Shown here: piece after piece, positions 3,028 to 58,300 of the stretch
Numbering within the stretch: the stretch's first letter is position 1
Layout: every line of letters starts with the position of its first letter
Source of the DNA: Carcharhinus amblyrhynchos
Lineage: Eukaryota
Assembly (NCBI GenBank): GCA_965287045.1
Contig: OZ336889.1
Location: forward strand, 44,082,001-44,146,000
Direction: 5' to 3'
Length of the DNA stretch: 64,000 nt
The notes under the pieces: generated by a model
Told to the model about the DNA's origin: nothing
Databases searched by the model: none
The model's input: the letters and a program-made list of their open reading frames with translations, nothing else
Translations under genes and position numbers: made by a program

Positions 3028-3369
3028 GTGCCATCGGAGATATTGTCCTGACCCAGCCAGGATCCATTTCAACGTCCCCGGGAAAGACTGTCAAGATCAC
3101 CTGTACCATGTCCGGAGGCAGCATTGGCAGCTACTACACGAGCTGGTACTGGCAGAAACCCGACAGCGCCCCTGTGTTTGTTTGGTACGGGAGCTCCACC
3201 AGAGGTCCAGGAATTCCAGATCGATTCACCGGATCTGTGGACTCATCGAGTAACAAGATGCATTTAACCATCACCAACGTTCAATCGGAGGACGCCGCCG
3301 ATTATTACTGTGCTGTAGCTAGAAGCGGAATATCCACCTTCGGGAGAGGAACCAAGCTGAACCTGGGCA
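3028..3369 (+). CDS. IGL: Ig lambda-like (type II) germline-joined V-J exon, cluster 1 (CDR3 AVARSGIST)
   Basis: Acceptor tttcaccag|; open frame DIVLTQPGS...ITC...WYWQKP...[23 protein letters not shown]; donor A|gtaagt at 3370; no RSS between V and J. Confidence 0.97.
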
Positions 3370-6497: not shown

Positions 6498-6820
6498 ATC
6501 CACGGAGCCCCACCATGTCTCTGCTTCCGCCTTCATCGGATCAAATCACAGCGAAGAACATGGCGACCCTGGTGTGTTTGGTGAGCGGTTTTAACCCGGG
6601 AGCTGCGGAGATTGAATGGACTGTAGATGGCAGCGTCAGAGGGAATGGGGTTGAGACCAGTCGGATACAGCAGGAGGCGGACAACACGTTCAGTGTGAGC
6701 AGTTATCTGACTCTGTCAGCCTCAGAGTGGAAGTCACACGAGCTTTACTCCTGTGTGGTCAAACACGAGGCTCTAGCAAACCCGCTTCGAACAAGCATCT
6801 CCAGATCCAGCTGTATGTGA
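6498..6820 (+). CDS. IGL: Ig light chain constant exon, cluster 1
   Basis: Acceptor ttttcag|; C1-set domain PRSPTMSLLPPSSDQ...ATLVCLVSGFNPG...W...YSCVVKHEAL...SSCM*; phase matches the V-J exon. Confidence 0.97.
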
Positions 6821-6905
6821 TTGCAAGATCTTGTGCGCTGATTCCTTATTTTAGTAGCAATGTCTGTTTAACAAAATATCAACTGCAGTAAAGAGGCACA
6901 TTTTA

Positions 6906-7622: not shown

Positions 7623-7677
7623 ATATCTTCAGGTTCTGTGAGGCCTTTGACCGAAAGCAGCTCAGTTAAGTTGAAGT

Positions 7678-9389: not shown

Positions 9390-9722
9390 AATCATAGAAT
9401 AAAATCATAACTTCATAGAATCATTACAGTGCTCAAACAGGTCGTTCGGCCCATCGCGTCTGCACCGACTCTCTGACAGAGCATCTCACCCAGGCTCAAA
9501 GCCCACTTACCCCACTAATCCCCCTAACCTACACATCTTGGGACATTAAAAGGCAATGTTAGCATGGCCGATCCACCTAACTGCACATCTTTGGACTGTG
9601 GGATGAACCCCACATAGACAAGGGGAAAACGTGCACATTCCACCCAGCCAGTCACCCAAGGCTGGAATCAAATCCTGGTCCTGGGCAGCCTGAGGCTGCA
9701 ATGCCAGCTACCACACCGCCCT
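9390..9722 (-). mobile_element. V-SINE (HE1-like)
   Basis: Reverse complement of head, core and tail (catagaa tail; cacatctttggactgtggga core). Confidence 0.75.
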
Positions 9723-9789
9723 TGATTGCGGTTACAAAATTGTATAAATTCTCGAGTAGTTCCTGCAGATTTTAAGTTATTAAATATAA

Positions 9790-10860: not shown

Positions 10861-10959
10861 GAGGGAAGGGCGGAGGCACTTTTGTAAACTGGAGACAGTT
10901 TCAGAATTTTCTTATTTTTTGGTGATCACTCGCTAATAAGTATGATTTTCCACCTAAGG

Positions 10960-12150
10960 AACACCATGTCAGTGGTCATGAGTACTGTGGGTCCTTGCAT
11001 GTTTAGCGAAAACAATCCTAGAATCACATCTCCGACCCCACATCTGGCAGGTATTTCTGGGAGGTGGCATTGCTCCTTGGACTCGAAATGACTGGCATTC
11101 CTTTCTCAGGTTCTTTTTCTGGATCTTTTCTTGCTGTCGAGTGTTCTCGAGGCTCCTTCACGTTGGTCTCTTTTGAACAAGGGTCGTGCGGGCATTTACA
11201 TCTGTGCTCCATTTCCATCCCTGTTACATTTCTTGAGGTAAAATTTAGAGTGCTTTTGAAACACTTCCTTTGTCTTTGTCTTGTTCAAGTCCCTTCCTTG
11301 GGCTCAGTGGAATAAATTTGCTCTGGCCATCAGGACTCTGGCATGCTAAGCACATGGCCATCTGAGTGGAGTTGGGTTCAGATGATCATGGCCTTGATGC
11401 TGGTGGTCTTAACTCCTTCAAGGACGCTGATGTTCGTATGCCTGTCTTTCCAGTTGATTTAGAGCATTCATCTCAAACAGCATTGGTGGTACCACTCCAG
11501 GGTCCTGAGGTGTCACCTTTATGTAGTCCAGGTATCTGAGCCACTGGAGGCTGACTGCCTTGTATATGAGGATCATAGTATCAGTACAGATGTCCCGGTC
11601 GCCAATCCCTCTTATCATTAAGTGTCTGAAGGTGGCGCTCACAGATGGAATGACATGTTGGGTTTCTATGTTAATGGCAGCCTTAGATAAGAGGTCTTTC
11701 CCCACATAGGGGAAATGTTTCATATTTGGGAGAGTTTCTCCTTGATCTTGGTAGAGGGAAAGATTACATTTTGCTTTGGAGTGGGTCGGTAAAGAACTTA
11801 TGTCTTCTTGAGGTTGAAGCTGAGATGAATTCTTCGATACACTTCCACAAAGCTATCAAGCATGGCTTTGGTATTCTCTTCTGAGAGCAGATATGGTGAT
11901 GACATCCACACACTGAAGTTCCACAAACAATGTCAGCATCATTCTCTTCTTCAATTTCAACCTGTTGTGGTCGCAAAATTTCCACCCATCTTGGATATTA
12001 CGTGAATTTCAGTGGAAAGCTTGTTTTTGACAAGGTGACCGATGGTGGTGATGAAGATGGAGAAAAGGATGGGCTGATGATACATCTCTGCTTGACTCCA
12101 GTTTTGAAATCTAAGGTTTATGTCATATTTCCATTGCTGACGGCTGTCAC
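10960..12150 (-). mobile_element. Decayed RTE-clade LINE fragment
   Basis: Minus-strand peptides KHFPYVG...SATFRHL...DTMILIYKAV resemble the RTE RT C-terminal region. Confidence 0.55.
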
Positions 12151-21400: not shown

Positions 21401-21590
21401 CTACCTCGCTGAATGTTTTTAAGGCAAGGATAGATAAATTTTGAACAGCAAAAGGAATTATGGTTTATGGTGAGTGAGCAGATAAGGGGAGCGGAGTCCA
21501 TGAAAAGATTAGCCATGATCTAATTGAATGGCGGAGCAGGCTTGAGGAGCCAGATGGCTTACTCCTGCCCCCAGTTCTTATTTTCTTATG
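18485..21590 (+). mobile_element. Older CR1 LINE (18485-18900 plus 20412-21590) interrupted by nested insertions
   Basis: RT-like sequence stops near VYLYFQK (~18895) and resumes at ~20425, running to a CR1 tail at ~21590. Confidence 0.65.
19145..20410 (+). mobile_element. Nested 5'-truncated CR1 LINE, RT ORF remnant (ORF 19106-19885)
   Basis: GVLQGPVLGPLLFVIYINDL, SKFADDTK and YCIQFWSP motifs; tail ttctatgattcta. Confidence 0.9.
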
Positions 21591-22774
21591 TATTTATGAC
21601 AACAAATGCTGGCGTTGACATCCATGTCCACCCTCCATGAAGGAAAGAAAAGCAACCTATCTCTGAATATGCTCAGAACCCCTCAGCCCTGCACAACATT
21701 TAGACCTGTGGAATTCAAGTATATAGTAAATCATGTCTAAATAAAGACCCTTCTCAGGGTTAATTAGGGTTGAGCAATAAATACAGACCGAGGCCACGAT
21801 GTCTACACCCCGCTACTGAAATTAAAGTAAAAATGTATTGACTCGCTCTATCTCTTCTGGCAAAATTCACCAGCACATATACCTGCATTAAATTTCATCT
21901 GTCTCTTGTCTGTGAATTCCTGTCGCTATCTGTGCGTTGTTGCAGTGAATTGTGATCATCCTCACTGTTTGCCATACCTTGACGTTTTATATCGTGGCCA
22001 ACTTTCTCAGCACTGACAGCGAGGAAACACCAATATTTATCACCCCCCATTCTTAAAAAAAGGTGCAAGTTACTCTTCTCTGTCCTCAAGACATTTTTTA
22101 CAAGTCCAACGTGAAACTAACCCTCCTATGCCATGATCCTCAATTTTATTAAACAATCTTTTATGTGGGACTTTGCCAAAGGATTTCTTAAAATCTATAT
22201 AAATAGCATGCACTGCATTCACTTCATCAAACATTTTGCTGTTTACTGAGAAATGCCATTTTGTTAGTCAAAAACAACTTGTTTTTCACAAACCCGTGCT
22301 GGCTCACTTCAAATAAATTGAATTATTTTCCATTGTCTGCTTTTCTGAAGCCTTATTTACCAACTGTCCGGTCCATATATGTTAGAAATTTCTTTACACC
22401 TACTCCTGAACAGGGCTGGCATTCACTATTTCCGAATGCTCCGGCACCTTTCCTGTTCAGTTGTCCATCTGTTCTCTGCAGAAGGCAGAACCTTGGCCCA
22501 TTGTCTGCTGATACTTTGGCCTGAGCCGTTTTCACGGCAGGTTTTGTCAGTGGTGGTTTGCCATTGTCCTCACTCTCGGGTGCAGGGGCAGACGGCAGGT
22601 CCCCAGTCCACCGGAGTCAGAACAGAAATTGAACCGGCACCGTTGGCATTGTTCTGATACATGTGCGAGGTATCCCGGCTAACTAAATCCATCAGCCCCC
22701 AACTAGGTGTTCATCTGGAGAAAAACAGAAGGTTATGGCATCATTAACTATTATTCGTCTATTGTTAGTTTTTA

Positions 22775-23082
22775 AGGGCGACACGGTGGCACAGGTTTTA
22801 TCGCTGCCGCCTCACAGCTCCAGCGACCCGGATTCAAATCCACCCTTGGGTGACTGTCTGTGTGGAGATCTCCCGTGTCTGCGTGGGATTCCTCCTGATG
22901 CTCCAGTTTCTTCCCACAATCCAAAGATGTGCAAGATAAGTGGATTGGCCACGCTGAATTGTCCTATCCTGTCCAGGACTTGGTGGTGCAAATGGGTGAG
23001 GTTACGGACTTGGGGGATTGCTGTCGATGCAGGCTTGATAGGCCGAACGGCCTGCTTCTGCAGGGATTTTATGATTCTATGA
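22775..23082 (+). mobile_element. V-SINE (HE1-like), paralogue of 1498-1800
   Basis: Same position and sequence within the duplication. Confidence 0.8.
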
Positions 23083-23964
23083 ATATTTATGAATTTGTTG
23101 TGAATGTTAGGCGCTATTTTCAAATTAGGTACGAACGGAATTTAGTATAATATTTTCTACAATAAGGGTGCAATCCGTGCTTGATCTTGAAGCTTCCATA
23201 ACTATCACAAATTTAATGAACAACTGCTTTATTTGACTTTTCACAATTCATTCTTCAAAGTGTTGACATAATAAACTCGCAGTCTCATGTGGCAAAAAGT
23301 ATCCCTCCCAGGCCGGTTAATAAAACTTCATCTCATCGTCCATGTTTTTCTCAGAATACTTAATTCACCAAGGCTCTCCATTCCCGGCAGTTCGCGAAGA
23401 ACACAAGGTGCAATCAACATCAAATATTCCTGTGCATTTTCCATCCTTCATTGTCTGCTTGTCTGTCTCCTCTCTCTCTCTGTCTTGCTCTATCTATCTA
23501 TCTGCCTGACTGTCTGTCTATCCCTCTCTATCTATCTATCTGTGTGTCTTTCCACCTACCTACCTACATATCTGTTCTTTCTTTCTATCCGTCCTAACCG
23601 TCCGACCCTCTATCCATCTATCTTTCTATCTATCTATCGCTCTGTCTCTCTGTCCATCCACTCATCTATCTGTTGTGTGTTGTCAATAAGGACACTGCTC
23701 AACCTCTTTAATTTCTCGCTCTGCTCAAACTCAATTCGCACTCTGCTTTCCCAACTCGAGTTTGGGCGGAATCATACAGTCACAAACCAGTTTACTGCCC
23801 CCAGCTTTTCCGCTTTATTGTCCTGCTCAGGCTTCTAAAACTCAAATACGCTGGTCACGCAGTCACCCATGTTTTACCCGCCATTTCATTTTTCTGGTAT
23901 TCATTTATTCACGGGTTGACATCTATTTTTTGACATTTGTTTCTAAAATAGCTGACAGGCGCCT

Positions 23965-24090
23965 ATGCAAATAGCAGTCAACTCAGGACGCGAAATCCTA
24001 TTGCCCGCTTTAGATGACGGGGTTTCGCATGCATACTTAATATTCAATGACGTTGTCAAGTTTGCAGCCTCTTAAGGAGAGCTTTATAAA
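23965..24090 (+). promoter_or_regulatory. IgL cluster 2 promoter
   Basis: ATGCAAAT at 23965-23972, TGACGT at 24048-24053, TATAAA at 24085-24090. Confidence 0.75.
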
Positions 24091-24151
24091 GAGCCCAGGA
24101 ACGCACTGTGTCAAGAAGTATTTCAGTCTGACCCTCACTCGGACCTTCATC

Positions 24152-24194
24152 ATGACTGTTCGAGTTCTTGCCGCACTAATGCTCTGTTTTCACA
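24152..24194 (+). CDS. IGL: Ig light chain cluster 2, leader exon
   Basis: MTVRVLAALMLCFH followed by donor A|gtaggt at 24195. Confidence 0.9.
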
Positions 24195-24329
24195 GTAGGT
24201 GTTGCGTTAACTTTCACTCTTGTTGCTATTTTTACTGCATTTATTGTCTATGTTTGACTTTAACGGAGCTGAATTGCAAACAATATAAACAATTGTCGAG
24301 CCTGACAGGTCAATAACTTATTTCACCAG

Positions 24330-24659
24330 GTACCATCGGAGATATTGTCCTGACCCAGCCAGGATCCATTTCAACATCCCCGGGAAAGACTGTCAAGATC
24401 ACCTGTACCGCGTCCGGAGGCAGCATTGACGACTACTACACGAGCTGGTACTGGCAGAAACCCGGCAGAGCCCCTGTGCTTGTTTGGGACGAGAGCTCTG
24501 ATACGGCTTCGGGTATTCCAGATCGATTCGCCGGGTCTGTGGACTCATCGAGTAACAAGATGCATTTAACCATCACCAACGTTCAATCGGAGGACGCCGC
24601 CGATTATTACTGTTATGCAGCTCGTACCTTCGGGAAAGGAACCAAGCTGAACCTGGGCA
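24330..24659 (+). CDS. IGL: Ig lambda-like germline-joined V-J exon, cluster 2 (CDR3 YAART)
   Basis: Acceptor tttcaccag|; DIVLTQPGS...[38 protein letters not shown]...DYYC-YAART-FGKGTKLNLG; donor gtaagt at 24660. Confidence 0.97.
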
Positions 24660-24984
24660 GTAAGTAAATTATTTACCGCGTTATTGCGGACACTGAAGAA
24701 AAAACACTTTAAACATATTGGCTTTACAGTATGAATTATAGAAAATCACGGCTACTGTCATTTAAATGCACTTAGACAGACCTGGTGAATCAGTGTCATG
24801 TGCCTTGCAAAAGTTAGTCAGTGCGACCAATTTTGCAGGCAATATCTAGGCTTTTAAACGTGTCCGGGACAATTTTTTCTCAGATGAAACCATATCATCC
24901 GGTTTTAAATAGGGCAGAGGGAAAGTGAAACGAGGTTCACTGGGATCTTCCTGAATGTTCTGGCGGAAATTTGCTCCATATTCT

Positions 24985-26026
24985 TCCAGCGAGATGGAAG
25001 CTGAAATTTCCACCTTCCGGCTAGTCCATAGTCGGAGAACATCAATTGAATCTCATTGGAAGAGGGCGGAAGGGGTGGGATAGGATAGATTGTTTGGCAA
25101 AGGGGGCTGTTAGCACTGTTGCATCTTACCTGTATTAATAAGGCGGTCAGAACCATGGTAAAATGGAGAAATATTCTAAGAATGAAACTCGATTATGTAG
25201 GAAATTGACTCAGGACGCGCTCTTTTCAAAGAAAAGCCTTTGGCGTCATTCTGTGTTCCAGAATTCCAAGGTTATTAAAGTCCCACAGAGTTTTGGAGTT
25301 TGATTGCGCCTGGTAAAAAGCTAAATTACAAAATCAAAAGTTCATTCCACTTCGAGCACATTAATTCCCGTCCTCGGATTGGTAGCGTTAATGTGATAAT
25401 TGGCTGCAACTCAATCTCGTCTCCAAACTGAGTGAAACCGTTCAGACAAAAAAAATTCTCAATTTTCCATACCCCCCCTACATCCAGAATGCAATGAAAG
25501 TATTTTACCAGCGAGATGGAAGTTGAAATTTCCACGTTCCCGTCAGCTGATAACTTGCGAATTGAATTTCATTGCGAGAGAGCAAAAGGGCGCGATAGGA
25601 TATATTGTTTGGCCAAGGGGCTGTTCGCACTGCTGCATCTTATCTGTATTAATAGGGCGAGCAGAATCATGGTGAAATGGAGAAATATTCTAAGAAATAA
25701 ACACAAATATGTCGGAAATTGACTCAGTGCGCGCTCTTTTCAAAGAATGCGTTTCGCCTCTCAGTTTTCCAAGATTCTAAGAACCCCACCCCCATTGTTT
25801 TTTAGACGGATAGCGCCGGTGAAAAGGCTAAATTGCAAAATCATTCCACTTAGAGCAATAATGCACATTTATCCCCATTCTCGGATTGGTAACATTAATG
25901 TGACAACTTGCTGCAACTCAATCTCGTCTCCAAGCTCAGTGAAGACGTTCGGAGGATAAAAAAGATTTTCAATAATCCATACCACCTCCCTCCCCCGCCC
26001 GCATAATACAATAAAAATACCAGCGA
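24985..26026 (+). repeat. Two-unit tandem duplication in the J-C intron of cluster 2
   Basis: Paralogue of 3693-4727; unit junction near 25509. Confidence 0.8.
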
Positions 26027-27809
26027 TCAGCTAACGATAATAGTCAGCGCTCTTCTATTTTCGGCATAACCGAATAACAAACATCTGTAACTGACATTAC
26101 ATCTACTTCCTTAACATGTGACTGGCTCATTAACTTCCGTCTTGATGAATTGCATCCGCATATCTCGCATCAGGCGTTCAGATTGCTGCGCCTTTTTTTT
26201 GTTCACTCGTTGAACCTTCCTCCTGGTTCTATGATCAGCCTGAGAGGATTTGTATTACTGAAAATTCGCGTACTCCATTGCATTGTGACTTTTTTTCCCC
26301 CGGCGGTATCACGGAGATAAGGATAAGATAGAAAAGGGAAAATGCTCTGTAATTCCGCGAATAATACAGACCTTGGTGTCGACGCATTTTTGCGCAGATT
26401 TATACGAATGGCAATGATTGCTCAATAATCCCATGGGATTTCAGATATTTCTGTATTATGATGCTCAGTTCAATTCTGGAGTATTATAAAACTCCGATAA
26501 GCGGGGTTAAATGCACTTGTCAAATTGCACGATTCAGTCTCCCAGTTATTGTGCCAACAACCTTATATGTCCCAAGGCGAAATTCTCCGGACTGCAATGG
26601 ATTGTATAGAATTGGGGAAAATGCAGTAACGTGTCAACATTTACTTCTTTGCTTTACATTCAATAAAAAAACACCGAGAGTCGGGCATTTGAGCTCGTTC
26701 TTGTACCGCGTGGTGTGAATGGTTAGCCAAACAGGCACCAGGTTGTGACATCCTGTCTTCAACCATATTACCCGGGGTAAAAATTCATTGTTACTATCAT
26801 GGGAATATTTCTTTTTAAGTATAAAAGCAAAGAACTTGCATTAGCATAGCGCCCATCACGACCTCAGGGTATCCGAGCCTGTTTTAGTCAATTGTGTGTC
26901 GTTTGTTTTAATGTCAGCCATGCTTGTAAGAAATGGGGTAGCTTATTTCCGCAGAATAAAGACCCACAAACCTCAATCAGCAGTTAAGCGATTGAAGCCG
27001 TATTTGTTGAGAGGTAAATTATTGGCCAAGTCACATTGGTTGCATTGTTTGTACACTGAGACTGTTGTTCGATTATTATTATATAACGTGGATATACCTG
27101 TTTACATAAGCAGCGTTATTTGTAGGAAACTGTTTTTTAGTTTGTTGAAAAGTTTCCACTTGTGACGCTGTAGCCCAATGATGTCCCAGATAGATTATTC
27201 GGAATGTAATGGAACAGTCTCCTGCAGGATTACACATTATAGTCGGACCAGGATTGGGGCTGTGGGGAAATGACTGTGAGAACTGGGGAGAAACCTGGTG
27301 CAAGCTACGAAGGTGCAAAGCGGCCAAGACAGTGAAGGTAGAGATTCCAGATATTAGCCCAATGTTACATTTCTGTGAAAAGAAGTGCAAACTGGAAAGT
27401 TCTTAATAGTTTGTTGAGCAGTACACTTCTTAGAATCAAATGTTATGTGTTTAATTATCTTTACTCCCAACTTTGTTCCAAGATTTACCCCTAATGCCGA
27501 TCATTAGCTTTGAACACATCAGTGCTATGTTCTGCATTCATTTTCGCGAAGTTTCAATTTCTACTTAAGATATTGCATGTGTTTCTAGTCATGCAGAAAA
27601 ATTAGGGATATCTTAACAGAATATATATTGTTCAAAACTATTCGGGGCGGCGGCTGTGCAGTTAACATTAATGAAGATTCCTTGTGTTAATTTCCCCGCA
27701 GCTTTGTACAGTGACGTGCAATCTTCAAAGATTTCAACAATGCAAAACATTGATTCTGACTCTTTTTGTCATTTAAGAATGGATCTTAATTGTTTTATCC
27801 ACTTTTCAG

Positions 27810-28132
27810 GTCCACGGAGCCCCACTATGTCTCTGCTTCCGCCTTCATCGGATCAAATCACAGCGAAGAACATGGCGACCCTGGTGTGTTTGGTGAGCGG
27901 TTTTAACCCGGGAGCTGCGGAGATTGAATGGACTGTCGATGGCAGCATCAGAGGGAATGGGGTTGAGACCAGTCGGATCCAGCAGGAGGCGGACAACACG
28001 TTCAGTGTGAGCAGTTATCTGACTCTGTCAGCCTCAGAGTGGAACTCACACGAGCTTTACTCCTGTGTGGTCAAACACGAGGCTCTAGCAAACCCACTTC
28101 GAACAAGCATCTCCAGATCCAGCTGTATGTGA
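27810..28132 (+). CDS. IGL: Ig light chain constant exon, cluster 2
   Basis: Acceptor ttttcag|; intact C1-set domain ending SSCM*; differs from C1 protein at only a few residues. Confidence 0.97.
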
Positions 28133-28217
28133 TTCCAAGATCTTGTGCGTCGATTCCTTATTTTAGTAGCAATGTCTGTTTAACAAAATATCAACTGCAG
28201 TAAAGAGGAACATTTTA

Positions 28218-28327
28218 AATAAATCATCACAATCGGCAGTTTATTGACTCGGTCTCGCTGCCTGTATTTAATGCGTTCACCCTGAACTGTTAAAGTGCAA
28301 TGTTGCAAATACTCGCAATGCAATAAA
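28218..28327 (+). terminator. Candidate polyadenylation signals, cluster 2
   Basis: AATAAA at 28218-28223 and 28322-28327. Confidence 0.6.
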
Positions 28328-30702
28328 ATTACTGCCATTAACTCAAACGTTATGATTATTATCAATCTGCTTCCATGGACAAAATTCCTAGCAAATTTCT
28401 AATTGTGAGGAATCGTGAAGTTTGCTTTTGTTGCGTTCTGCATTTATGTAAAGCCAATGGCACCAATCGTATGCGCACATGTGGAAGAACCCTTGCAACA
28501 TAATTTTCAAGGTAGATCTGACTGAATGTTGTAGTGTGTGGATAGCGGTGATCATGATGTGGATGTTTCTGACAATAATTCACAGCGCTTAATGTGAGAG
28601 TTTCTAAATTACCTGGTTACACAATTTTAGGCCACATCGAGTATCCTCTTTCGGATACCGGCACCATGGTGTTATTAAAAATATACAATCATTTGAATTG
28701 ATTGGTAAGATATATTATGAAGCATTTTCTGCTTCCATCAGACTTTTGAACCTTGCATTAAGTTGATCTTTCGCTCCCCCCCAGCTACAACTGTAACACT
28801 ACATTCTGCACTCTCTCGTTTCCTTCTCTGTGAACGATATGCTTTGTCTGTACAGCGCGCCAAGAAACAATACTTTTCCCGGTATACCAATGCATGTGAC
28901 AATAATAAATCAAATGAAATCAAAAAATCAAATCATATCTTCAGGTTCTGTGAGGCCTTTGACCGAAAGCAGCTGAGTTAAGTTGAAGTCAAAATACTGC
29001 GGATGCTGGAAATCTCCAATAAAAGCAGAGTGTGCTTGAAAAACTTAGCTGGTCTGCCAACTTACCTGGAGAGAGAAATATTTAACGTTTCGAGTCCAAT
29101 ATGATTCTTGTTCCAAAGTGATTTTGGGAAGAAGAGTCATATGGAGTTGTACCGTGAACTTTGTTTCTCTCTCATAGATGCTGACAGACCTGCTGAATTG
29201 TTCGAGCCCTTTCAGTTTTTACTTGAACTCAGAGAAGAATCGTCCTTTTTAAAATTCACACAAATCGCAAATCAATATTTCCCTTCAGTGCATAGTTTTT
29301 TTTGTGTAGATTGACTTCAGACTGCCATAAATATATTGGTGCAAGTAAAATTGCAAGCTGCAAAGACCAGCAAAAACACAAACTATAAACAATGTCGGTG
29401 ATGGTTTTCAATTATGAAACGCAATCATTCTCTGCCCAAAGTTAATGAAGGAACCGGCAGTACCAAAGGAAACGTGCTTAAAAGTGACTTGCAGTTTCCT
29501 GAAGGCAACTATTTCAAGTTTGTTGCACCGACAATAAATAAGGCACGCCAAAAAGATAGTGTTTTGATATATTGAACCTACATTATTTCAAACTGAAGAT
29601 ATTAGGCCAATCAATATTAATTTTAGAATACACAAGTAAATTAAACTTCTTATAATTCTTTTTAAACACATGGCATTGAAATTTGGAAGAAGAGCAAACT
29701 TCCGTTGCGTAATAGAATTACTGCATGTACTTTGCAGCAGTAGAATATGAAACAATAGATTGAAAGGTGTGCCTTCAATAACAGGCAAGCAGGGTGCTGG
29801 TAAAGATAGCAAGAGATCTAACTCATGATAATTAAAATACATTGCATTTTTAGTTTACCTTTTATAAGTATATAACCTTAGCCGTATTATATTACTTTTT
29901 AGTATTTACATTTAGAAACAAACAAGATAAGGCTGAACCATTCTTATGTTCGTGCCTATGGTAAGAACAGTTACAGACATACATGAATATTTGGAGTGAA
30001 AGACACTTAAGTAAGATTATCCTGTATTATAATTAAGAAGCTATGAATTAATTGGCAGAATTGCCTTCGAAACTTAAACAATTTAATAATAGTTATTTTG
30101 ATGAAGAAAATTTGCGTTTGATCTGAAATGACGGAATGGAACTGGAGATGTCCACTTGATGCATTAATTAATGGACTGGGCGAACAGAATAGCTCAGAAA
30201 TATCAATGCTGCGGGGCCGACTGTTCCAGAGTTGTGGAGACATCCAATTGCTGTACCTCAAGCACCCCACGCCCTCCACCAACCTCCCCCCACTCCCCCG
30301 TCACACCCCGGCCATCTCCCGGCGCCGCTCAGCATCCACTCTCCTCCGCTATTCTTCAGAGATCTGTCAGTAAAACGCCTTGTTGCCTGATTTTAAGTAG
30401 GTTATTGCGTTTAAAGTTAACGACCTTTGTCTTAAATTGGTTTAAGTGAGGAAAAATACTTTGCGAGATAGAAAGCGACCCGCATCACTGACAGACACTG
30501 CGTTAGAACAGCTCCGCCTAGGACAACAGCGCCACGCTACATTGCCGTTTACATGTTGTGGTAGAATAAGCAGAAACCACCGGACAACTTAAGTATCACG
30601 ATCAGAAAAACATGAATTTGTTTAAATGAAATTCATTTGATCGGAAAGACAGTTTGGGCCATATGTTCAAAAGAGGTGATTGTGGGGATAGCAGTTTCAT
30701 TG

Positions 30703-31025
30703 AATCATAGAATAAAATCATAACTTCATAGAATCCTTACAGTGCTCAAACAGGTCGTTCGGCCCATCTCGTCTGCACCGACTCTCTGACAGAGCATCTC
30801 ACCCAGGCTCAAAGCCCCTAATACCCCTAACCTACACATCTTGGGGCATTAAAAGGCAATGTTAGCATGGCCGATCCAGCTAACTGCACATCTTTGGACT
30901 GTGGGATGAACCCCACATAGACACGGGGAGAACGTGCACATTCCACCCAGCCAGTCACGCAAGGCTGGAATCGAATCCCGGTCCTGGGCAACGTGAGGCT
31001 GCAATGCTAGGCACCACATCGCCCT
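30703..31025 (-). mobile_element. V-SINE (HE1-like), paralogue of 9390-9722
   Basis: Same position within the duplication. Confidence 0.75.
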
Positions 31026-32519
31026 GATTGGGATTACAAAATTCGATAAATTCCGGAGCAGTACATGCAGATTTTAAGTTATCAAATATAACCTCACTAT
31101 TTAAGAAAGGAGAGAGAAGAAAAAGTGTAACCACAGACTTATTAGCCTGACCCCAGTAGTAGAGGTATAATTTGATGACGTGCATTTCGTAAAGAATGGT
31201 CGAATTGTGCAGCGCCAACATGGATTTAGAAAGGGAAGAATGTTTGAAAAACCTTTTTTTTTGACGTTATAAATTGCAGAATAGGTAACGGGAAGTTGTT
31301 GGTTGTGGTGTATTTGGATTTTGAAAGACTTTTTGTATGAGGTCCCACTCAGAAGTTTAGTAAATACAAAAAGGCATACTGGATTTGTCTGTAATATTAT
31401 GGCATGGATTGGGAAGTGGTTATCAGACTCCAAAAAACTATAGGAATAGATGGCTCACCTTCAGGTTGACATATTGTGATTAGTGGGTTGCCAGAAGGAG
31501 CAGTAGTTGTGTCCCAGGTTTTTACAATCAATATCCATGGCTTGGATTTGGGAACAAAATGTAATATTTCCATGTTTGCTTTAGTTGAGAATGTGAGTTG
31601 TGAGGAGGATGCAAAGAGACTCAAAAACCAGCCAAGAATATGGTAGATGAAATATATTGTGGAAATACTGAAGTTATTCACTTTGGTAGCAAAACCAGAT
31701 TGAGTGTATTTCTTAAATAGTGAGAGATTGGGAAGAATTGATGTCCAAAGGGACCTGGATGTCCTTGGTCATAAGTCAGTGGAAGCTAACATTCAGTTGA
31801 AACATGCAATTCGGAAGGCAAATGGCATGTTGGCCATAGCTGCAAGGGGATTTGAGAGTTCGTTTAAAATGTCTTGTACGATTGTATGGAGGCTTGGCGA
31901 GACTGCTCGTGACTAATGTATACAGTTTTGGTCTCCTTCGAGAAGGGAGGGTAGATTTGCCGTAGACAGTGTGCAACAATGTTTCATCATACTGATTCCT
32001 GAGATGGCAGCATTGTCCTAGGGGAACCAAATGAGGAACCTCGATCTGCATCTTTTAGAATTTAGAGAATGAGAGGTGATCTCATAGGAGTCCGCCAAAT
32101 TCATACAGTACTTGACAGGATAGATGAAGGAAGGATGCTGGCCCTGGCTGAAGGAAAGGCGGAGGACACTTTTGTAGACGGGAGACAGTTTCAGAATTTT
32201 CCTTTATTTTTGATGATCACTCGCTAGCAAGTATGATCGTCCACTGAAGAAACACCACGTCAATGGTCATGAGTACTGTGGCTCCTTGCATGTTTAACGA
32301 ACACAATCCTAGAGTTACTTCTCCGACCCCACATCTGCAGGTACCTCTGGGAGGTGGCATTGCTCCTTGGGCTCGAAATGACTGGCATTCCCTTCTCAGG
32401 TTCCTTTTCTGGATCTCCTCTTGCTGTCGAGTGTTCTCAAGACTCCTTCAGGTTGGTCTCTTTTGAACAAGGGTCTCGCGGGCATTTACATCTGCGCTCT
32501 ATTTCCATCCCTGTTACAT

Positions 32520-33992: not shown

Positions 33993-35366
33993 AAAGAACA
34001 AAGAACAAAGAACAACACAGCACGGGAAACAGGCCCTTCGGCCCAACGAGCCCGCGCCGCCGTCCCACTGTCTCAGTGACCTATTCATGATTTTAGTCTA
34101 CGCCTAATGTGCGAGGATCAGGGAGGTCCAATATAGGGACAATTTGTTACCCAATCAATCAGCCTAAAAGCACATCTTTGGGATGTGGGAGGAAACCGGA
34201 GCACCCGGAGGAAACCCACGCAGCCACGGGGAGAACGTGCAAACTCCCACAGACACAGGCCCAAATCCATGTGTCCGCACAGCAACAGAGATAGTCTCAG
34301 AGCTGTCATGTTGCCCTCGAGATGGTCCAGTTTAAGCACACTAACGACATGAAGCAATAGGCAACTCCCGAAGCAACGTCCAAGAGCAGCCCACTACAAC
34401 CTGCCGCATGCATGCCCCTTGCTGGTCAACAAGGTGGACTTAAATGCCTGTGGAGACAAAAAATTCATTATTAAACAGGCAAAGACTGTAACATCCCTAA
34501 GGCAAAAACGTAATCCCAAGCCTACAATGTTTAGTAAGGCCTGCTATATCCCCCTATATGTAGCCCGCTCATGTGGCTGTCCAAGTGACTCTTAAACAAC
34601 CCTAGCGTGCCTGCTTCCACCACCTTACTCGGCAGTGCATTCCACACCCCCACTACCCTTTGCGTGAAAAACTGCCCTCTAATATTTGTCTTATACCTAG
34701 CCCCCCTCACCCTAAGCCCGTGACCCCTCGTTCTATCCATTTCTAATAGCGGAAAAAGCTTACCACCATTTACTCTATCTATCCCCTTCATAATCTTATA
34801 AACCTCTATTAGATCCCCCCTCAGCCGACGTCTCTCAAGGGAAAACAGCCCAAGTTCGTTCAATCTTTCCTCGTAAGACAGCCCTTCCATACCAGGCAGC
34901 ATCCTGGTAAATCTCCTCTGCACTCTCTCCAGGATCTCTACATCCTTCCGGTAGTACGGCGACCAGAACTGGACGCAGTACTCCAAGTGAGGCCTAACCA
35001 ATGTTCTATACAACTGCAACATCAGACTCCTACTCTTATATTCTATACCCCTTCCTATGAAGGCTAACATACCATACGCTTTCCTCATCACATTCTGCAC
35101 CTGCACCGACACCTTCAGGGACTTGTGCACTTGCACCCCCAGGTCTCTCTGCGTATCTATACTCCGGATAGTTCTACCTTTTATCGTATAACTCCCCTCC
35201 ACATTATTCCGGCCAAAGTGCATCACCTCGCATTTCTCCGGATTAAATTCCATTTGCCATCTATCTGCCCAATCTACCAGTCTGTCTATGTCCTGTTGCA
35301 TTGCCAGGCACTGCTCCTCAGTACCCGCCAATCCAACCATCTTAGTGTCATCAGCAAATTTGCTGA
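33993..35366 (-). mobile_element. Young 5'-truncated CR1 LINE: uninterrupted RT C-terminal ORF (to stop at 34531) plus ~540-nt 3' UTR containing a V-SINE core
   Basis: 279-aa open frame (SKFADDTK...LVRPHLEYCVQFWSP...RRLRGDLIEVYK); (ttctttg)n tail; flanking tcgccttc and tcaccttc as candidate TSD. Confidence 0.9.
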
Positions 35367-41916: not shown

Positions 41917-42121
41917 AAACTGCAATGGCGCGAGAAGTGGGCGAATGCAAGATTTCCATGCCCTTGCCTTACACCCAATGGAATCAAAGACAAACTAGCT
42001 GGATAGTTTTGTTACAATTTCAAATACAACAATTATAACTGAAATCCAACTTTTAACTTCGAATCTTTCACGGTTGGAATTTTACTGTTGTCATTACTGA
42101 CGAAAACCAGAGATTATTGCA

Positions 42122-42444
42122 TCAGATACAATTTGACCTCTCTATAGTTGTTTTATGCGGGTTTGTTAAAGCCTCGTGTTTAACTACACAGGAGTAAAGT
42201 TCGTGAGATTTCCACTCTGATGCTGACAGAGTCAGATAACTGCTCACACTGAACGTGTTGTCCGCCTCCTGCTGGATCCGACTGGTCTCAACCCCATTCC
42301 CTCTGATGCTGCCATCCACAGTCCATTCAGCTTCCACAACTCCCTGTTTGAAGCCTTTCAGAAAACACACCAGGGTGGCCTTGTCCTTTTCTTTGATTTG
42401 ATCGGATGAAGGCGGAAGGAGTGAGACCGAGGGAGCCCGCGGTT
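42122..42444 (-). CDS. IGL: Ig light chain constant exon, cluster 3
   Basis: Acceptor tttctttctag|; EPRAPSVSLLPPSSDQIKEKDKATLVCFLKGFKQG...W...YSCVVKHEAL...SNCI*. Confidence 0.96.
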
Positions 42445-43149
42445 CTAGAAAGAAACATGAAAACAATGTGTGACGATCTACTGGGAATTAGATGCAAATA
42501 ATCGAAATGAAACAATTTACGTATCAGTATTTTTTCTATCTAACTGTGCGATTTCTATGTTGTAGAATGTAGGTTTCATAATGTACCTTAACTAATCACA
42601 GAGTCAGTAACTCTAGAAAACTAAGTAGCGTCACAAATGAGAATCCGAGGGCACCATGAATTTCGAAAATTGAAACGGACAGACTATTCGTCCTTATTTA
42701 AACGACATCTTGACCATCACTTCATGTAGTGTTAATGCAAGCCTACTCGTGACCAAAAAAAAGCAAACTTTCACTATTTGTCTTCCTTACATATTCAGTG
42801 CTAACCTGTCGGGATGGAAATTTAATACCGCTCAGCCTTTAATGGGCTATTTTGTACAAACAGCAGAGAAACTGGCCTTTCGCTTTAATCGATGGTGATA
42901 TTTTTGTGCCACGAAATTATCCTCTTCATCTAATATTATCTACAAATGCTTTGCTCGACTTGTCCCTCGTTCATCTGTCCAATTCCCCTAAAGATACTCG
43001 CGATGTTCCCCTTAACCCTTCCATGCTATGGCAAATTACACATCGTAAACATTCTCTGTGTTACTCTCGGATTCTTTACTGTGTCTCTTTCTGACTAACA
43101 TTTATGATTTCTATATGCTAGCAGCATAAAATTGCAAACACACTTGACT

Positions 43150-44353: not shown

Positions 44354-44704
44354 CTCCCACATACAGTTCAGTTCCTTTTCCGAAAATGTATGCAGCAGGG
44401 CTGCCACCCCAGGAGCCACAATAATAATCAGCGACATCCGAGGCCTGTACGTTGGTGATGGTTAAACGCATAACGTTCCTCGATGTGTCCCTGGATCCAG
44501 TGAATCGATCAGGAATCCCCGGACCTCTTTCAGAATTATTGTCGTACCAAATGAAGACAGGGGCACTGGCGGGTTTCTGCCAGTACCAGCTGGTGTAGTA
44601 GCTGCCCAAGCTGCCTCCGGACATGGTGCAAGTTATTGTGGCAGTTTTCCCCAGTGAAATTGAGATGGACGCTGGCTGAGTTAGCACAGGAGCAACGTTG
44701 GTGC
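44354..44704 (-). CDS. IGL: Ig lambda-like germline-joined V-J exon, cluster 3 (CDR3 GSWGGSPAAYI)
   Basis: Acceptor tttctctag|; APVLTQPASIS...ITC...WYWQKP...DYYC-GSWGGSPAAYI-FGKGTELYVG; donor G|gtaagt at 44353. Confidence 0.97.
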
Positions 44705-44854: not shown

Positions 44855-44903
44855 ATTGCAAACAGCGCACCAAGGCGGCGAGAACACGAAGCCAGTCACT
44901 CAT
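44855..44903 (-). CDS. IGL: Ig light chain cluster 3, leader exon (MSDWLRVLAALVRCLQ)
   Basis: ATG at 44903, RVLAAL shared with leaders 1 and 2, phase-1 donor T|gtaagt, in frame with 44704. Confidence 0.88.
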
Positions 44904-44987
44904 TTTGTAGATTATTATCAATCTCAGAACAAAATGTTTCCCGACTCGAAACTAATTGTTCAACCGCTTCTGAACCTCTCTTTAAGG

Positions 44988-44995
44988 TTTATTTA
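44988..44995 (-). promoter_or_regulatory. TATA-like element of cluster 3
   Basis: TAAATAAA on the minus strand about 85 nt upstream of the ATG. Confidence 0.4.
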
Positions 44996-45327
44996 CGCCA
45001 CCGGATATGAAAGGCATCTGCCCCTTCGGCAAATTTCTAACACAACGCGACTGTTCATTGGACGTTTGGAAATATTCGGTTGATGTTCGTAAAAGCGAAT
45101 ATTAGGCATTTTTAATGTCTTGAATGGAGCATTCAAGACATTAACCCGTTGTCGTCCGATTTACTGAATTCATATGAAATCCCATCGGTTGATTTTAAGA
45201 AAAGAAATATGAAAGTGCATAAAATTTGTGACATGCACGACCAATTGAAAACCGTGCAAACCTGACAGGGAAAACTGAACAGTGCAATTTAATCGATTAC
45301 CCTTTGAAGCATTAAACTTTTTAATTT

Positions 45328-51380: not shown

Positions 51381-52013
51381 TTATTTTTCCAGGCTGGTTT
51401 GAGGGACACATCTTGCAATCCACAGACTTCCCCTAAATTTCGCCCATACAACCAGAGAAAAAGGCTACACTGCAGAAAGAGGCCATTCAGCTCATTGCGC
51501 CTGCAGCAGCTAAAAAAGAAACTTGCCGCTCGTTTATATTTTCCAGCACCTGATCTGTGGCCCTGCAAGTTCCAACACTTCAGATCCAGGCACCTTTAAA
51601 ATGAGTTGAGTATTTCAGTCTCAAACACCAAAATAGGCAGTGAATTCTAGTTACCCGTGACCTTTTATTTGAAAAGCATTTTTCTCATGTCCCCTCTAAG
51701 CTTTCTACTAACCAAAGTAAATCTATGCTTCTGGCAATTGATTGGGGAATGAAATCTTTCCTGTTTATCTGTAAAGGTCCCACATAATTTCGTCCATCTC
51801 AGTTCGACCCCATTATCCTCCTCTGTTCTATTGAAAACAACACACCGATCCAATCCTTCCTCATAGCTGCAATTTTCGTTGCCTGGCAGCATTATTTTAA
51901 ACTTTCTCTGCATTCTCTCCGGAGCAATTGTGCTCTTCCTGTAATGTGGTGGCCAGAACGTTGCAAACAGCGTCAGCTGGACTGAATCAGCATTTTATAC
52001 AGATCCATCATTT

Positions 52014-52554
52014 CATCCCTGCTTTTGATTTCAATGCCTTTCAAATGAAGGGAAGCTTTCCATATGCTTTCTTCATCACCTTGTCCACCTCTGCTGCCAC
52101 GTTTAAGAACCTATGGACATGTGCTCCAAGATCTCATTCCTCAAGCCCTCTTAATATCGTCCCGCTATCTGAACATTCCCTTGCTTTGTTTGCCCTCTCC
52201 AAACGCATTAACTCACAATTTTCCGGATTGAATTCCATTTGGCATTTCTCTGCCCATTCAACCGAATCATTAATATACTTCTGGAGTCAGCAGCTGTCCT
52301 CTTCACTAACAATTGGAGATAAAAATCAAATGGAATTCAATCCGGAAAAGTGTGAGTTAATGCGTTTGGAGAGGGCAAACAAAGCAAGGGAATATTCAGA
52401 TAGCGGGACTATATTAAGAGGGGTTGAGGAATGAGATCTTGGAGCACATGTCCATAGGTTCTTAAACGTGGCAGCAGAGGTGGACAAGGTGATCAAGAAA
52501 ACACGTGGAGTGCTTCCCTTCATTTGCAAGGCATTGAAATCAAAAGCAGGGATG
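52014..52554. repeat. Inverted repeat of CR1-derived sequence, 228-bp arms and 85-bp spacer
   Basis: 52014-52241 is the near-perfect reverse complement of 52327-52554. Confidence 0.92.
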
Positions 52555-54308
52555 TAATTATAAAAGGTAAAACATTAACGACAGGTTATATTATAATCCC
52601 GTCAACACGTCTACTGATTAATTACACATTCTTCAACTGACTCAGAATGAGGCCTACTATTCGTCCTTGATAGTTTCCAATAACGGTTCCGTTGCTAAAT
52701 GAATTCTAGATTAGGACAACATGGCTTCTGACCATGTTGGTTTACTATGCTAAATAACAAATGGAGTCAAACTACAAAATAGTCTCGCTATGCTTCAATT
52801 CTTGATGTTAAAACAACCAACATACAGGCATGGTACTCACACTGGTGGCAGGAACTATGCAGATATTCGCCACTCACAGTTGCTGTATCATAGGATATTT
52901 CTAAGCCCTCACGAGGAATTCCTGCAATAACAGGGGATGTCAATCTGCCAAGCAGAAGTAAGTTAGGGACAGTTCGGCCTTCTCGATTAGCGATTAAAAC
53001 ATATCCTGGCCCTGCAGCATCCTGTGAATGAACAAATCAAAAGCGGGGATTATTTACCAGGGTGCAAGTCTAAATCAGGTTGGCATACGATATCAGCAGA
53101 TTTAATTGTTTCCTCTTCAGCCTTCCTAAAGTAACGCCAATTGCTTCAATCCACTGCTGTTACTACACACCGACAACACATCGGCGTTTTTGCACCTGTA
53201 TCAAGGTTTCCCTTATCATACCTCGGTGTATACTTCAGCACCAAGTATCTACATCGGTAGCAATTGCAATTCTTTGTAATTTTGCTGGCGGGCGTACTCA
53301 CACTTCGTTGCCACGGTAATTCAGTTTTCCTGGGGTGACATTTGGGTTGTAGTGGGGGCTGGGGGCAGGGTGTGGTGCGGGGCAATGGTGGATGGGTTCA
53401 ATGTGAAATTATGTTCTTTCCCTGTTTCTACGTGTTCTATCCTGATCTGTCTGCAAAATCTACAACACTTGTCATAATTCTTATATGTATGGTAAGAAAA
53501 ACAGTGATGAGACACCCACTGATACTATTGGAAAATCATTTGACTTGAGTCCGGCGCTGCTTTTTCCTTCTGGGCCTGTCCTTCAGTTTGAGTTGACATA
53601 CGTAATTTTAACAGCCTGCAGTATTTTCCGTATACTTCTACACGATGCACTATTTGTACTGGTTTCAAGCTAATGCTTTCTCCAAATCTTCTGCAGTTCG
53701 GCGCAGTCGTCAAATTCAGAAAATAAAACTCGCAATATACTTCTTTAATGATCTTGGTATCACGTAAGTTACTCTAATTCATGTGCCCTGTTTTATTTCA
53801 TAAATAGTTCCGAGGAATAGCGATATTATAGCAAATATTCATTGATCAGTGTTAACCCTCCGATTAGTGCATTGAGATAGTATATTATGCATTCTTAAGT
53901 GTTATATCAATTGAGCAATTATCACTTAATTAACCCCTCATCAGATGGATCGTTGTCTTGAATGTACTTTCAAAGCGGCAGCAAATACTTTGTTCCGCAT
54001 CTATCAGCTCTTATCACCGTCACCTAATACTACACCAGTAGATGGCAACATTGCAGCTCATGTAGCTGGTACGTCATGGAACGTGGTATACATTTTTAGA
54101 AGTAAAGTATGGGAAATACCATGGTTAAATATAACATTGATTATAAAGAAATTAGAGCAACTCAAACAATTTGTATCAATATTGGATATAGTTCTTCACA
54201 TAACCGTTTGATACATCAATAATTGTTTTTAATTGACATTCTCTATGACTTACTTTTGGTCTCTATCCTAAATATACATTCTTCGAAAGTGATTGGAGGC
54301 TGCAGTTA

Positions 54309-54483
54309 CAAAGAACAAAGAACAACACAGCACGGGAAACAGGCCCTTTGGCCCAACGAGCCCGCGCCGCCGTCCCATTGTCTCAGTGACCTATTCATGA
54401 TTTTAGTCTACGCCTAATGTGCGAGGATCAGGGAGGTCCAATATAGGGACAATTTGTTACCCAATCAATCAGCCTAAAAGCAC
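54309..54483 (-). mobile_element. Short 3' copy of the 33993-35366 element
   Basis: Only about 2 mismatches to ~33999-34173. Confidence 0.85.
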
Positions 54484-55337: not shown

Positions 55338-58300
55338 GGAGAACTAATCTAACCCATGGTCTACCACGCTGAATATAATCCCAGAATGCATAGATACTTA
55401 TAGTGACATCAATTGTAAAATGAATTTCGTGTTATTTTGAACACTATCCTACTTTGGGACTTGAAACGAACTTACGGCAAATGCGCATTTTCAACGTTTT
55501 CACCAGGAAATATATTGTATTTAGCGGACCGTTTTTATGAACGCGATTCCTCTGAAGACTGTTTCCAGTGCAGGTACTGCAGGATTAGGTTGTTCGACCT
55601 GCTGGCTCTGATGACTCATTAAATTGAACAAATTGGATGGTTGATTATAATAACAAAGCCGGGCGGAATTTGGAAATTATGAATAAAATTCAGTAAATTT
55701 TTGAAATATTCAGCTGATGGGGCAGAGCCTGCGATGAGAGGAAGAGAATTAACGTTTCAGATGAATGACCTTCGCTCTGATCTGCAGTTTGGTCTCCATT
55801 TAATAGAAGTTGCATCATGTAAGACACTACCGAGCATCAAATTTTGGATTAGCAAATCCAAAATCTGGCAGCAATTTTATGAGAAGGTTTGAACTGGGCC
55901 CTGAGAGTTATGTTGGAATTACATTTCATTCAATTGTCGGTAAAATTCAGAAAGGCAATGTTGTGAATGCAGTGTACGGTCACTTAAAGAAAATGATAAC
56001 AGTTGGAGAAGAGCCAGCGTGACTTAAAAGCAATGTTTGTCTTAGTAACCCAACGAAAGCAGGCTTGTGGTATATTATTATATTCATTTCCAAAAAAACA
56101 GCCGCCAGTAATCAAATATACAGAAGGTTCATGAGTAAGGTCGCGGGCTTTGTGATAAATAGGCAGTTTTAAATGTGAACACCACGTTGCTTGCATTCTG
56201 CTAGGAACAGAATAACGTTTCAAGGTAGTAACCTTTCATGTCACATATTCGTCAATGATTTGAGCTCATGCATTAAAGACGCAAACCTTGAGAAATGTGA
56301 TGGCATAAATACACTTAAAGTTGTTAGGAAAGTAAATGAAACATATCAACTGATTTAAATCGTTTGGTAGGTTAGCTTGCGATGTCGCCGATTTTCTTTA
56401 AGTGCATTTATGTAGTGTCAGACAATCGGGTCTAGTTAGAACCAACCGTATCGTGTAGCAGTATTAACTAAATGTGGTGGAAGAAGAGAGAAACTAGGGG
56501 TACCCCTAGTGAATAAAATAGTGACCTTTTAGAACCACTGCCCTGACAGCATATTAACGTCCATTGCCAAGAGAGTGCATCATGAAGCTAAAGGCACAAT
56601 ACTTAGCTTGTATCCCTGGTATCACAGTATTTAGGGTGATATGTTCGACCTCTTGGACTGACAGGAGAACTAGTCTCTATGGGTTCCGCGTTCTCATGCA
56701 GACGTGGGCTGAAAAGATTCCCAGTGATTAAAGCAGAATGCTGCGCCTGCTGCAAATTTGAGATGAAGTAATAAAAGGCTGGAAAGACAAAGCAACTCAC
56801 ACATTATCCGGGGAGGCAGAACCATAGAAACCCTTTCCCATTGCTGAACTGGGAAAAACAATAAAGGCAGACAACGAAATAATAAGGCATTAGCTGCCTT
56901 CAGAGTAAGGGGGTGCAGTAAAGTCTAAATTATACACCGCTTGGATGTGAGCTCACGGGTTGTGAGTAATGAGATTGGCTAACTGCAGGTACAGGCATAC
57001 ACCAGAGAATATGATGTTTTGACGAGAACGAGAATCTGCTACAAAAAATGTCAGGACTGGCAGCTAAATATTCCGGTCATTCAGGCATTCAAAGGAGCTA
57101 GGGAAGAAAAGAAAGGATGAGCTGTAGAAATATTGGTTAAGGAAAATCTTACAGCGCTGGCAATAGGAGATATCTCAACCCGGCGAAGGCCATAATCTAT
57201 TTTCTAACTGCCATTATTTCCCAGAATGAGATTGTGGCATAAAGATATTGATCCAGAAATGTCTCCTGATACAATTTACAAAATGCTTCCCCATGCCAAT
57301 TACTTATGACGACCTGAGCCCAAAGTGGAACTATAAAACAACCATTCTATGATCTATTTGCAATTTTGTCTCCCCAATATTTCCTGGCAGTTAGAAAATC
57401 GAGTGCCGGGTTCAGTCACAGAATGCTGTAGCAGAGGGGCTCCAGAGCATGGCCTAATCGCAGACTGCCAGGGCTGAGGGATCATACATCAAAGCGCAGG
57501 CACATCTAGGCCTCCGGGACTGGCAGAGCCAGGTGATGCCGGAGCTTCTGGAGCTCAGTGCAGCTACCCTGGTGTCCCATGGAGTGTCCCCAGGCCTCTC
57601 TCGGCACTCCAAGGGAGGAGGAAGGGCTTGAGAGCCCATGTCAGGGCCTTCCACCCTGGAGATCTCGGGTGTCCCAAGACCTTCCAACTCCCCCTTCCTC
57701 ACATCGGGGCATCTCAGGGTCAGCAAGATGAACAGGGTGCAGTGCAGCAGTGCCATCCACAAGGCAGTTGGGGCCCTCCAGGCCCCAGCCACCCAGGGAA
57801 CATCCGCCAAAGGCATTACAGGCATCACGTGGCCACCTCCAACTCTGGTGTATGCCCTGGGGTAGCACTGAGAAGAAGCAGTAGACAGCACAAAGTTAGA
57901 AAGTTGTAGTTCATTAGAGGGCACAGGGGAAGGCAGAACAAAGAACAACCCAGCACGGGAAACAGGCCCTTCGGCCCAACGAGCCCGCGCCGCCGCATCC
58001 TCCTACACCTCCCCTGCCCTGAGTGTATGACCCTGCCCTGCATTGGTCAGGGTTTGGTAATCACGTTTGTTAAGAGCACAATAAACTGTTAATTGCACAT
58101 CACTCAGTGACTAATGTGTTTCTGATTCTCTGCACCCCGCCCCCCGCCATCCACCTCCCCGCCCACCCTCTCGCACTCCCACAGCTCAGTGTTTCAGACT
58201 CCCAACCACAGAGGCGCTACCTGTTGAGCCTTGCAGACTCAGCCACATGTTTCAGAGTGCCTGCCCTACCTTCTCCAACATCCACCGGACCCTCGGTGTA

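What the first reader, a model, noticed from the sequence alone, without database searches (positions are those of the whole stretch)
42222..42316. 95-nt perfect identity tract between C3 and C2 inside otherwise divergent C exons
Seen: the reverse complement of 42222-42316 equals 27938-28032 exactly, including every synonymous site. C1, the tandem twin of C2, has two differences in the same tract (6635 and 6667). Both ends of C3 are clearly divergent from C1/C2 (IKEKDKA/ITAKNMA, FLKGFKQGVVEA/LVSGFNPGAAEI, HKTTIERSNCI/LRTSISRSSCM), and I see no intron homology. Inference: recent gene conversion between inverted clusters 14 kb apart or from another family member, homogenising the central strands of the C domain.
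Basis: partly seen in the sequence, partly recalled or inferred. Interest (0 to 1): 0.7.

Follow-up and report, generated by a model that had tools for sequence, protein, structure and literature searches.

The report
Shark antibody genes swap constant cores
Two oppositely oriented shark antibody light-chain genes with very different ends share an identical 95-base core, most likely because gene conversion keeps copying this core among the 40 copies of the family, a process already known from other immune-receptor genes.

Summary
The 95-nt identity is real and exact. It lies in the C exons of a shark Ig lambda (type II, germline-joined VJ) array of at least 40 clusters. Outside the tract C3 and C2 differ at 13 of 29 four-fold sites, inside at 0 of 13; synonymous-run P=0.0012; top pair of 741, global P=0.005. 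The tract is not C2-specific: 17 of 38 other copies match it at 94/95. One base, a Val-to-Ile CpG change found only in C2 and C3 genome-wide and not seen in four other organisms, links the pair. The next inverted cluster has its own 98-nt tract with C2. Across sharks, V domains sort by ancient lineage but C domains by host order (24 versus 10 label changes; AU p 0.006 and 0.001). Verdict: likely recurrent, exon-limited non-allelic gene conversion, with a probable late C2-C3 exchange of unknown direction, helped by protein constraint on the core. A known process (TCR C-beta, shark UrIg2), here in a new locus. Distant-species DNA was not obtained.

The parts
42222..42316 (-). 95-nt tract in C3 (c06) C exon, encodes DGSIRG...YLTLS
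27938..28032 (+). identical 95-nt tract in C2 (c05) C exon
42307..42307 (-). Val-to-Ile base (CpG transition) shared only by C3 and C2 among 40 copies
27947..27947 (+). same Ile base in C2
27986..28083 (+). 98-nt stretch of C2 identical to c07, the next inverted cluster just beyond the window (G000:C20:44146875-44147184, minus)
42122..42444 (-). C3 (c06) lambda C exon, open frame, Pfam C1-set
44354..44704 (-). C3 cluster germline-joined VJ exon, open frame, Pfam V-set; ancient V lineage
44855..44903 (-). C3 cluster leader exon; Arg in the hydrophobic core where orthologues have Leu
45027..45034 (-). degenerate octamer (2 changes) at the place where c07 has a perfect one; coordinates counted by hand from the printed sequence
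27810..28132 (+). C2 (c05) lambda C exon, open frame
24330..24659 (+). C2 cluster germline-joined VJ exon
24152..24194 (+). C2 cluster leader exon
6498..6820 (+). C1 (c04) lambda C exon, tandem twin of C2, Val at the marker site
3028..3369 (+). C1 cluster germline-joined VJ exon (acceptor at 3028 or 3040)

Best explanation
The identical 95-nt stretch is the core of a lambda light-chain C exon that is near-identical across a 40-copy array, likely kept so by recurrent non-allelic gene conversion limited to the exon, with the latest exchange probably between the adjacent inverted clusters C2 and C3. Shown: C3 and c07 are sister clusters of an old V lineage, with their own C-exon ends and no intron homology to the main array, yet each carries a 95-98 nt block identical to C2. 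Inferred mechanism: purifying selection keeps the core strands similar enough for ectopic pairing during germline break repair; repair copies about 100 nt and stops at the diverged ends; this feedback holds the core uniform while ends and introns drift. The inverted orientation would keep C3/c07 out of the unequal crossovers that turn over the tandem copies. Direction of the last exchange is not determined.
For: Four-fold sites C3/C2: 13 of 29 differ outside, 0 of 13 inside; two-fold 5 of 24 versus 0 of 18. Site patterns switch: C3 sides with c07 at 19 (5') and 11 (3') sites but 0 in the tract, where it sides with C2 at 8. C2-C3 and C2-c07 are the two top pairs of 741 (global P 0.005, 0.0075). 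The Ile 23-mer occurs exactly twice in the genome, in C2 and C3; the site is all Val in the contigs laid from 4 of 4 other-organism runs and in sandbar shark P0015, the likely C2 orthologue. Family-wide: c22/c40 VJ four-fold sites differ at 20 of 28, C at 7 of 49; 69-protein trees need 24 host-order changes for V and 10 for C; C data reject both V-defined clades (AU p 0.0058 and 0.00098). A residue inside the tract follows host, not V lineage: Ala in 25 of 26 carcharhiniform C domains, Thr in the lamniform, horn shark and squalomorph members of C3's own V clade. The tract's silent sites can vary: intact c07 differs at 3 of 13 four-fold sites; no unusual RNA fold (z -0.49). Both tract borders are bridged by short-read contigs with 0 differences.
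Against: Only one base ties C3 to C2 rather than to 17 other copies; it is a CpG transition, and Ile recurs there in catshark P0005 and Mustelus P0033. None of the 7 contigs laid from run X1 shows the Ile base on a C2-type background, so C2's base rests on the assembly. The family-wide silent-site run test was not significant (P=0.25). The tract is the least variable third of the domain across species (0.096 versus 0.145 and 0.164), and the family consensus of organisms A-D is unchanged in it apart from the Ile site and minor variants, which fits constraint as well as close kinship. Tract borders were chosen after seeing the data. The C tree is a quick tree on 106 columns with few strong branches; the AU test used the simpler model, which the tool says rejected 5 of 71 true clades.
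Confidence: 0.7

Rival explanations
1. Conversion keeps C3's core family-like, but the donor was any array member and is older; the Ile base shared with C2 is a parallel CpG mutation or a consensus error in C2.
For: 17 of 38 other copies match 94/95; Ile recurs in two other species; organism A's contigs fit a family-type core in its C3 orthologue; no read-level support for C2's Ile.
Against: 0 of the other 38 copies carry the change and the two carriers are direct neighbours; C2 is also the best partner of c07.
Confidence: 0.18
2. No conversion: strong purifying selection, including on synonymous sites, has frozen the core since the clusters split.
For: Core is the most conserved third of the protein; family consensus unchanged in organisms A-D; silent-only family test not significant.
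Against: Intact c07 has 3 of 13 four-fold changes there; host-specific residues inside the tract are shared across old V lineages; C trees follow host order; VJ four-fold divergence of C3/C2 is 18 of 36; no RNA structure signal; C3 shows signs of decay.
Confidence: 0.07
3. Assembly or polishing artefact: multi-copy reads overwrote C3's centre.
For: The core is shared by dozens of copies; Logan contigs drop rare variants; X1-X3 may be the source sample.
Against: X1 contigs 42000-42306 and 42277-42600 match with 0 differences and bridge both borders; C3 holds a base absent from the majority, which majority overwriting would erase; other organisms' orthologous pieces also run into the family core.
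Confidence: 0.03
4. Reciprocal exchange: two crossovers inside the inverted C exons (the 14-kb segment inverting and flipping back) swapped the core.
For: Inverted, tail-to-tail geometry allows it.
Against: A swap moves differences but does not make both copies identical; both carry Ile.
Confidence: 0.02

Closest known systems
Cartilaginous-fish Ig lambda (type II, NS3) light-chain clusters (PMC5192425, PMC4279169; passages read)
   Same: One germline-joined VJ exon plus one C exon per cluster; C2 nearly matches sandbar shark lambda P0015 in CDR3 and C.
   Different: The passages read describe organisation and copy number, not conversion between C exons.
Mouse TCR C-beta1/C-beta2 exon 1 gene correction (PMC2188480, abstract read; PMC2685407, passages read)
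   Same: Within-species homogenisation of a C1-set constant exon between paralogues, repeated independently in different lineages.
   Different: Two direct-orientation genes there; here at least 40 clusters, tracts of about 100 nt inside the exon, inverted partners, and one lineage that keeps distinct ends.
Shark UrIg2 C2-C9 domain homogenisation (PMC12227049; passages read)
   Same: Within-species gene conversion of Ig C1 domains in sharks, seen as host-wise clustering in trees.
   Different: Between tandem exons of one gene and over whole domains, not between separate clusters and not sub-exon tracts.
Human C-lambda complex (PMC2188323; abstract passage read)
   Same: Unequal crossing over or conversion between conserved C-lambda regions was proposed.
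   Different: Young J-C duplications in a translocon; here the partners' V lineages predate the split of shark superorders.

Membership tests
Cartilaginous-fish Ig lambda (type II) cluster | Leader, V-set exon and single C1-set exon in one cluster | tested here: met
Cartilaginous-fish Ig lambda (type II) cluster | V and J joined in the germline, in frame | tested here: met
   open VJ frames through FGxG for C1-C3; full V-to-J matches in 33 further or overlapping clusters printed
Cartilaginous-fish Ig lambda (type II) cluster | Nearest named relatives are shark lambda chains | tested here: met
   sandbar shark lambda chains at 75% to C3 and near-identical to C2
Cartilaginous-fish Ig lambda (type II) cluster | C3 cluster is expressed | tested here: inconclusive
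   no run on record as RNA; a guessed-RNA run of organism B has a C3-type 5' piece; octamer degenerate here
Non-allelic gene conversion | Local tract of identity exceeding flanking synonymous divergence | tested here: met
   one low-power variant not significant
Non-allelic gene conversion | Phylogenetic switch at tract borders | tested here: met
   site patterns; for V versus C
Non-allelic gene conversion | Shared derived variants between donor and acceptor | tested here: inconclusive
   one private shared base, at a CpG, C2 copy unconfirmed by reads
Non-allelic gene conversion | Tract sites free to vary between distant species at DNA level | not testable with these tools
   no distant shark DNA obtained; shown only for amino acids and for paralogue c07
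Non-allelic gene conversion | Non-reciprocal transfer with known direction | tested here: inconclusive
   both copies carry the derived base, which implies copying, but the donor is unknown

The most novel reading that the evidence does not exclude
C3 and c07 represent an old lambda subclass whose N- and C-terminal C-domain residues (KEKDK, FLxG, IE[RK]S, also seen in white shark, catshark and Mustelus members of the clade) are held apart by selection against a steady flow of conversion that erases differences only in the core, for example to keep a distinct heavy-chain pairing or effector surface; and the conversion events are mutagenic, since C3's lineage-specific substitutions pile up at both tract borders (7 in 70 nt versus 8 in 436 nt against organism A).
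Probability: 0.2. Interest if true: 0.6.

Novelty: new member of a known kind. Interest (0 to 1): 0.35.

Why it matters
It shows that in shark lambda arrays the V and C halves of one cluster have different histories: germline-joined V lineages persist across shark orders while C exons are homogenised within each host. Trees of shark light chains built on C or on whole chains would therefore misdate clusters and hide orthology. It also means C-region probes or reads cannot tell clusters apart in the core. The parts of C3/c07 that escape homogenisation are testable candidates for subclass function. The process itself is textbook.

Tried and rejected
Silent-only family-wide run test: not significant, low power. 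RNA structure as a source of synonymous constraint: none in 5 segments folded. DNA from distant sharks: viral contigs gave 1 weak 31-aa match, not examined; metagenome contigs gave 0 of 160 stretches. Expression: no RNA holder listed, no evidence either way. Contigs of organisms C and D had gaps over the C3-specific 5' part and could not place their orthologues' cores firmly. A J-motif search found 1 of 40 J segments and was replaced by tblastn; 6 of 40 clusters gave no VJ hit and 1 a partial hit, likely because the fetched stretch ended too early. Searches were translated out of frame and are not used. The careful C tree did not finish; the quick one is reported. Frameshifted c13 and c15 were dropped from the tests and c15. 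Trees used 60 of 120 listed proteins plus 9 of 40 own clusters; the alignment used 70 plus 7. Papers not held: PMC2590587 (nurse shark IgM evolution) and PMC47676 (sandbar lambda clone); they may already mention conversion. Searches finding no paper on conversion among shark lambda C exons: (open-access library only; no supplements read). Earlier scan notes: none.

Full report
Observation. The reverse complement of 42222-42316 equals 27938-28032 exactly. C1 differs at 6635 and 6667, and C3 and C2 share only their VJ and C exons.

Setting. The window is G000:C20:44082001-44146000. A search with the C3 exon scored 40 of 41 candidates, all matches on C20; I fetched them and numbered them c01-c40 (C1=c04, C2=c05, C3=c06). 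Each window cluster has a leader, an in-frame joined VJ exon and one C1-set exon. The nearest named proteins are shark lambda chains. Reviews state that all type II/lambda genes are germline-joined clusters (PMC5192425, PMC4279169; passages). c01-c05 and c08-c33 lie on plus; c06, c07 and c34-c40 on minus. Representatives of these groups share no intron homology, except c06 with c07.

The tract is the family core. Of the 38 other copies, 17 differ from C3 at 1 of 95 sites, and only c07 at more than 5. The one base that separates C2 and C3 from the rest is a Val-to-Ile change at a CpG. The 23-mer holding it occurs twice in the genome; a control 26-mer from the tract occurs 37 times.

Statistics. 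C3/C2 four-fold sites differ at 13 of 29 outside and 0 of 13 inside (Fisher p=0.003, borders post hoc). A shuffle of synonymous sites gives P=0.0012. In a GENECONV-like scan of 741 pairs, C2-C3 ranks first (global P=0.005) and C2-c07 second (98 nt, P=0.0075); C3 with many array members also passes. A test on the 31 family-wide silent sites was not significant (P=0.25). Site patterns flip at the borders: C3 goes with c07 at 19 and 11 sites in the two ends, at 0 in the tract, and with C2 at 8 in the tract.

Deep pattern. C3's V domain falls in a clade (99/99) with catshark, Mustelus, white shark, horn shark and two squalomorph proteins, so the lineage is older than the split of shark superorders (roughly 200 million years or more; recalled). 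V trees need 24 changes of host order, C trees 10. C data reject monophyly of both V-defined clades tested. In 10 of 12 members of C3's clade the tract peptide is on average closer to own-species paralogues than to other-species clade members; the two Mustelus members are the exceptions. Within this genome c22 and c40 differ at 20 of 28 VJ four-fold sites but 7 of 49 in C. Constraint alone does not produce host-specific residues shared across old lineages; this is my main argument for conversion (inference).

Reads. All runs were contigs, which drop rare variants. Run X1, possibly the source sample, has pieces 42000-42306 and 42277-42600 with no differences, bridging both borders and holding the Ile base 31 letters from an end. 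It shows no C2-type Ile piece among 7 laid. In 4 of 4 runs of organisms A-D all depth at 42307 is the Val base, and organism B's C3-type pieces stop fitting exactly there. So Ile likely arose in this lineage. In organism A the C3-type 5' and 3' pieces flank a family-type contig and nothing else covers 42267-42308 at 80% likeness, consistent with a family-type core that predates the Ile base. How distant A-D are is not known.

Mechanism. Shown: mosaic exon, non-homologous introns, inverted adjacency, host-wise C clustering. Inferred: ectopic repair between C exons copies about 100 nt in the most conserved part; diverged ends stop it; inverted copies escape tandem unequal crossover. By alignment with a human lambda C domain the tract covers the VETT-like and SSYL-like strands, which face CH1 in mammals (recalled), so constraint there is expected and would feed conversion. 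Direction is open: C3 has several lineage-specific changes just upstream of the Ile base, so C3 to C2 is as plausible as C2 to C3.

Comparison. The same process is described for mouse TCR C-beta exon 1 (PMC2188480, abstract), TRBC genes generally (PMC2685407, passages), shark UrIg2 domains (PMC12227049, passages) and proposed for human C-lambda (PMC2188323, abstract passage). PMC2193156 (passages) reads the species-wise clustering of kappa genes as independent expansion, an alternative that the old V lineages exclude for lambda here. PMC2192082 held abstract and references only; PMC3308330 passages did not address it; PMC5413550 was seen as a listing only. My searches found no paper on this for shark lambda C exons, but two key papers were not held.

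Verdict. Real feature; conversion about 0.9 likely in some form, a specific late C2-C3 exchange about 0.7. New instance of a known process; interest 0.35.

Noticed in passing
window 44855-45034 (minus): C3's cluster has a degenerate promoter octamer where c07 and c01-c05 have a perfect one, and Arg in the signal-peptide core; it may be decaying although its frames are open (octamer role recalled).
   Followed up: partly
window 42185-42221 and 42317-42345: Differences between C3 and organism A's orthologous contigs cluster at both tract borders: 7 in 70 nt versus 8 in 436 nt, Fisher p=0.002 (p=0.02 without the two border bases); counted by hand, tested. Could be repair-associated mutation, an unseen donor, or a longer conversion tract in A.
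   Followed up: partly
G000:C20:44146875-44147184 (c07, L031): Second inverted cluster with its own 98-nt tract identical to C2, shifted 48 nt 3'; C1, C2 and c03 share the EAL motif with c06, c07 and the distal group, while most of the array has ETQ.
   Followed up: yes
L042 (c13), L041 (c15), L036 (c25), L034 (c28): Four of 40 C exons are broken: a 1-nt deletion, a 17-nt deletion, and in-frame stops.
   Followed up: no
window 44354-44704, 24330-24659 and L031: Germline-joined CDR3s are conserved between species: C3 with catshark P0002, c07 with Mustelus P0003, C2 with sandbar shark P0015.
   Followed up: partly
window 1-11229 and 21281-32519: 11.2-kb tandem duplication at 92.6% identity; identity peaks near 97% at the C exon and its 3' flank and is about 90% around the VJ exon's 3' side.
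   Followed up: partly
window 52007-52561: A 555-nt stretch matches its own reverse complement at 87%, like a foldback or MITE-type element.
   Followed up: no
window 33998-34173 and 54308-54483: A 176-nt pair at 98.9% identity, with a 61-nt part also at 57935-57995; a young repeat.
   Followed up: no
C exon position 229 (Glu/Asp), all 40 copies: The minority base is scattered over 17 of 40 copies across groups with unrelated introns, a patchwork that fits continuing exchange.
   Followed up: no
L069:501-599: A viral-collection contig has a 31-residue, 55% match to the C-domain start (E 4e-6 among 5 candidates); probably chance.
   Followed up: no
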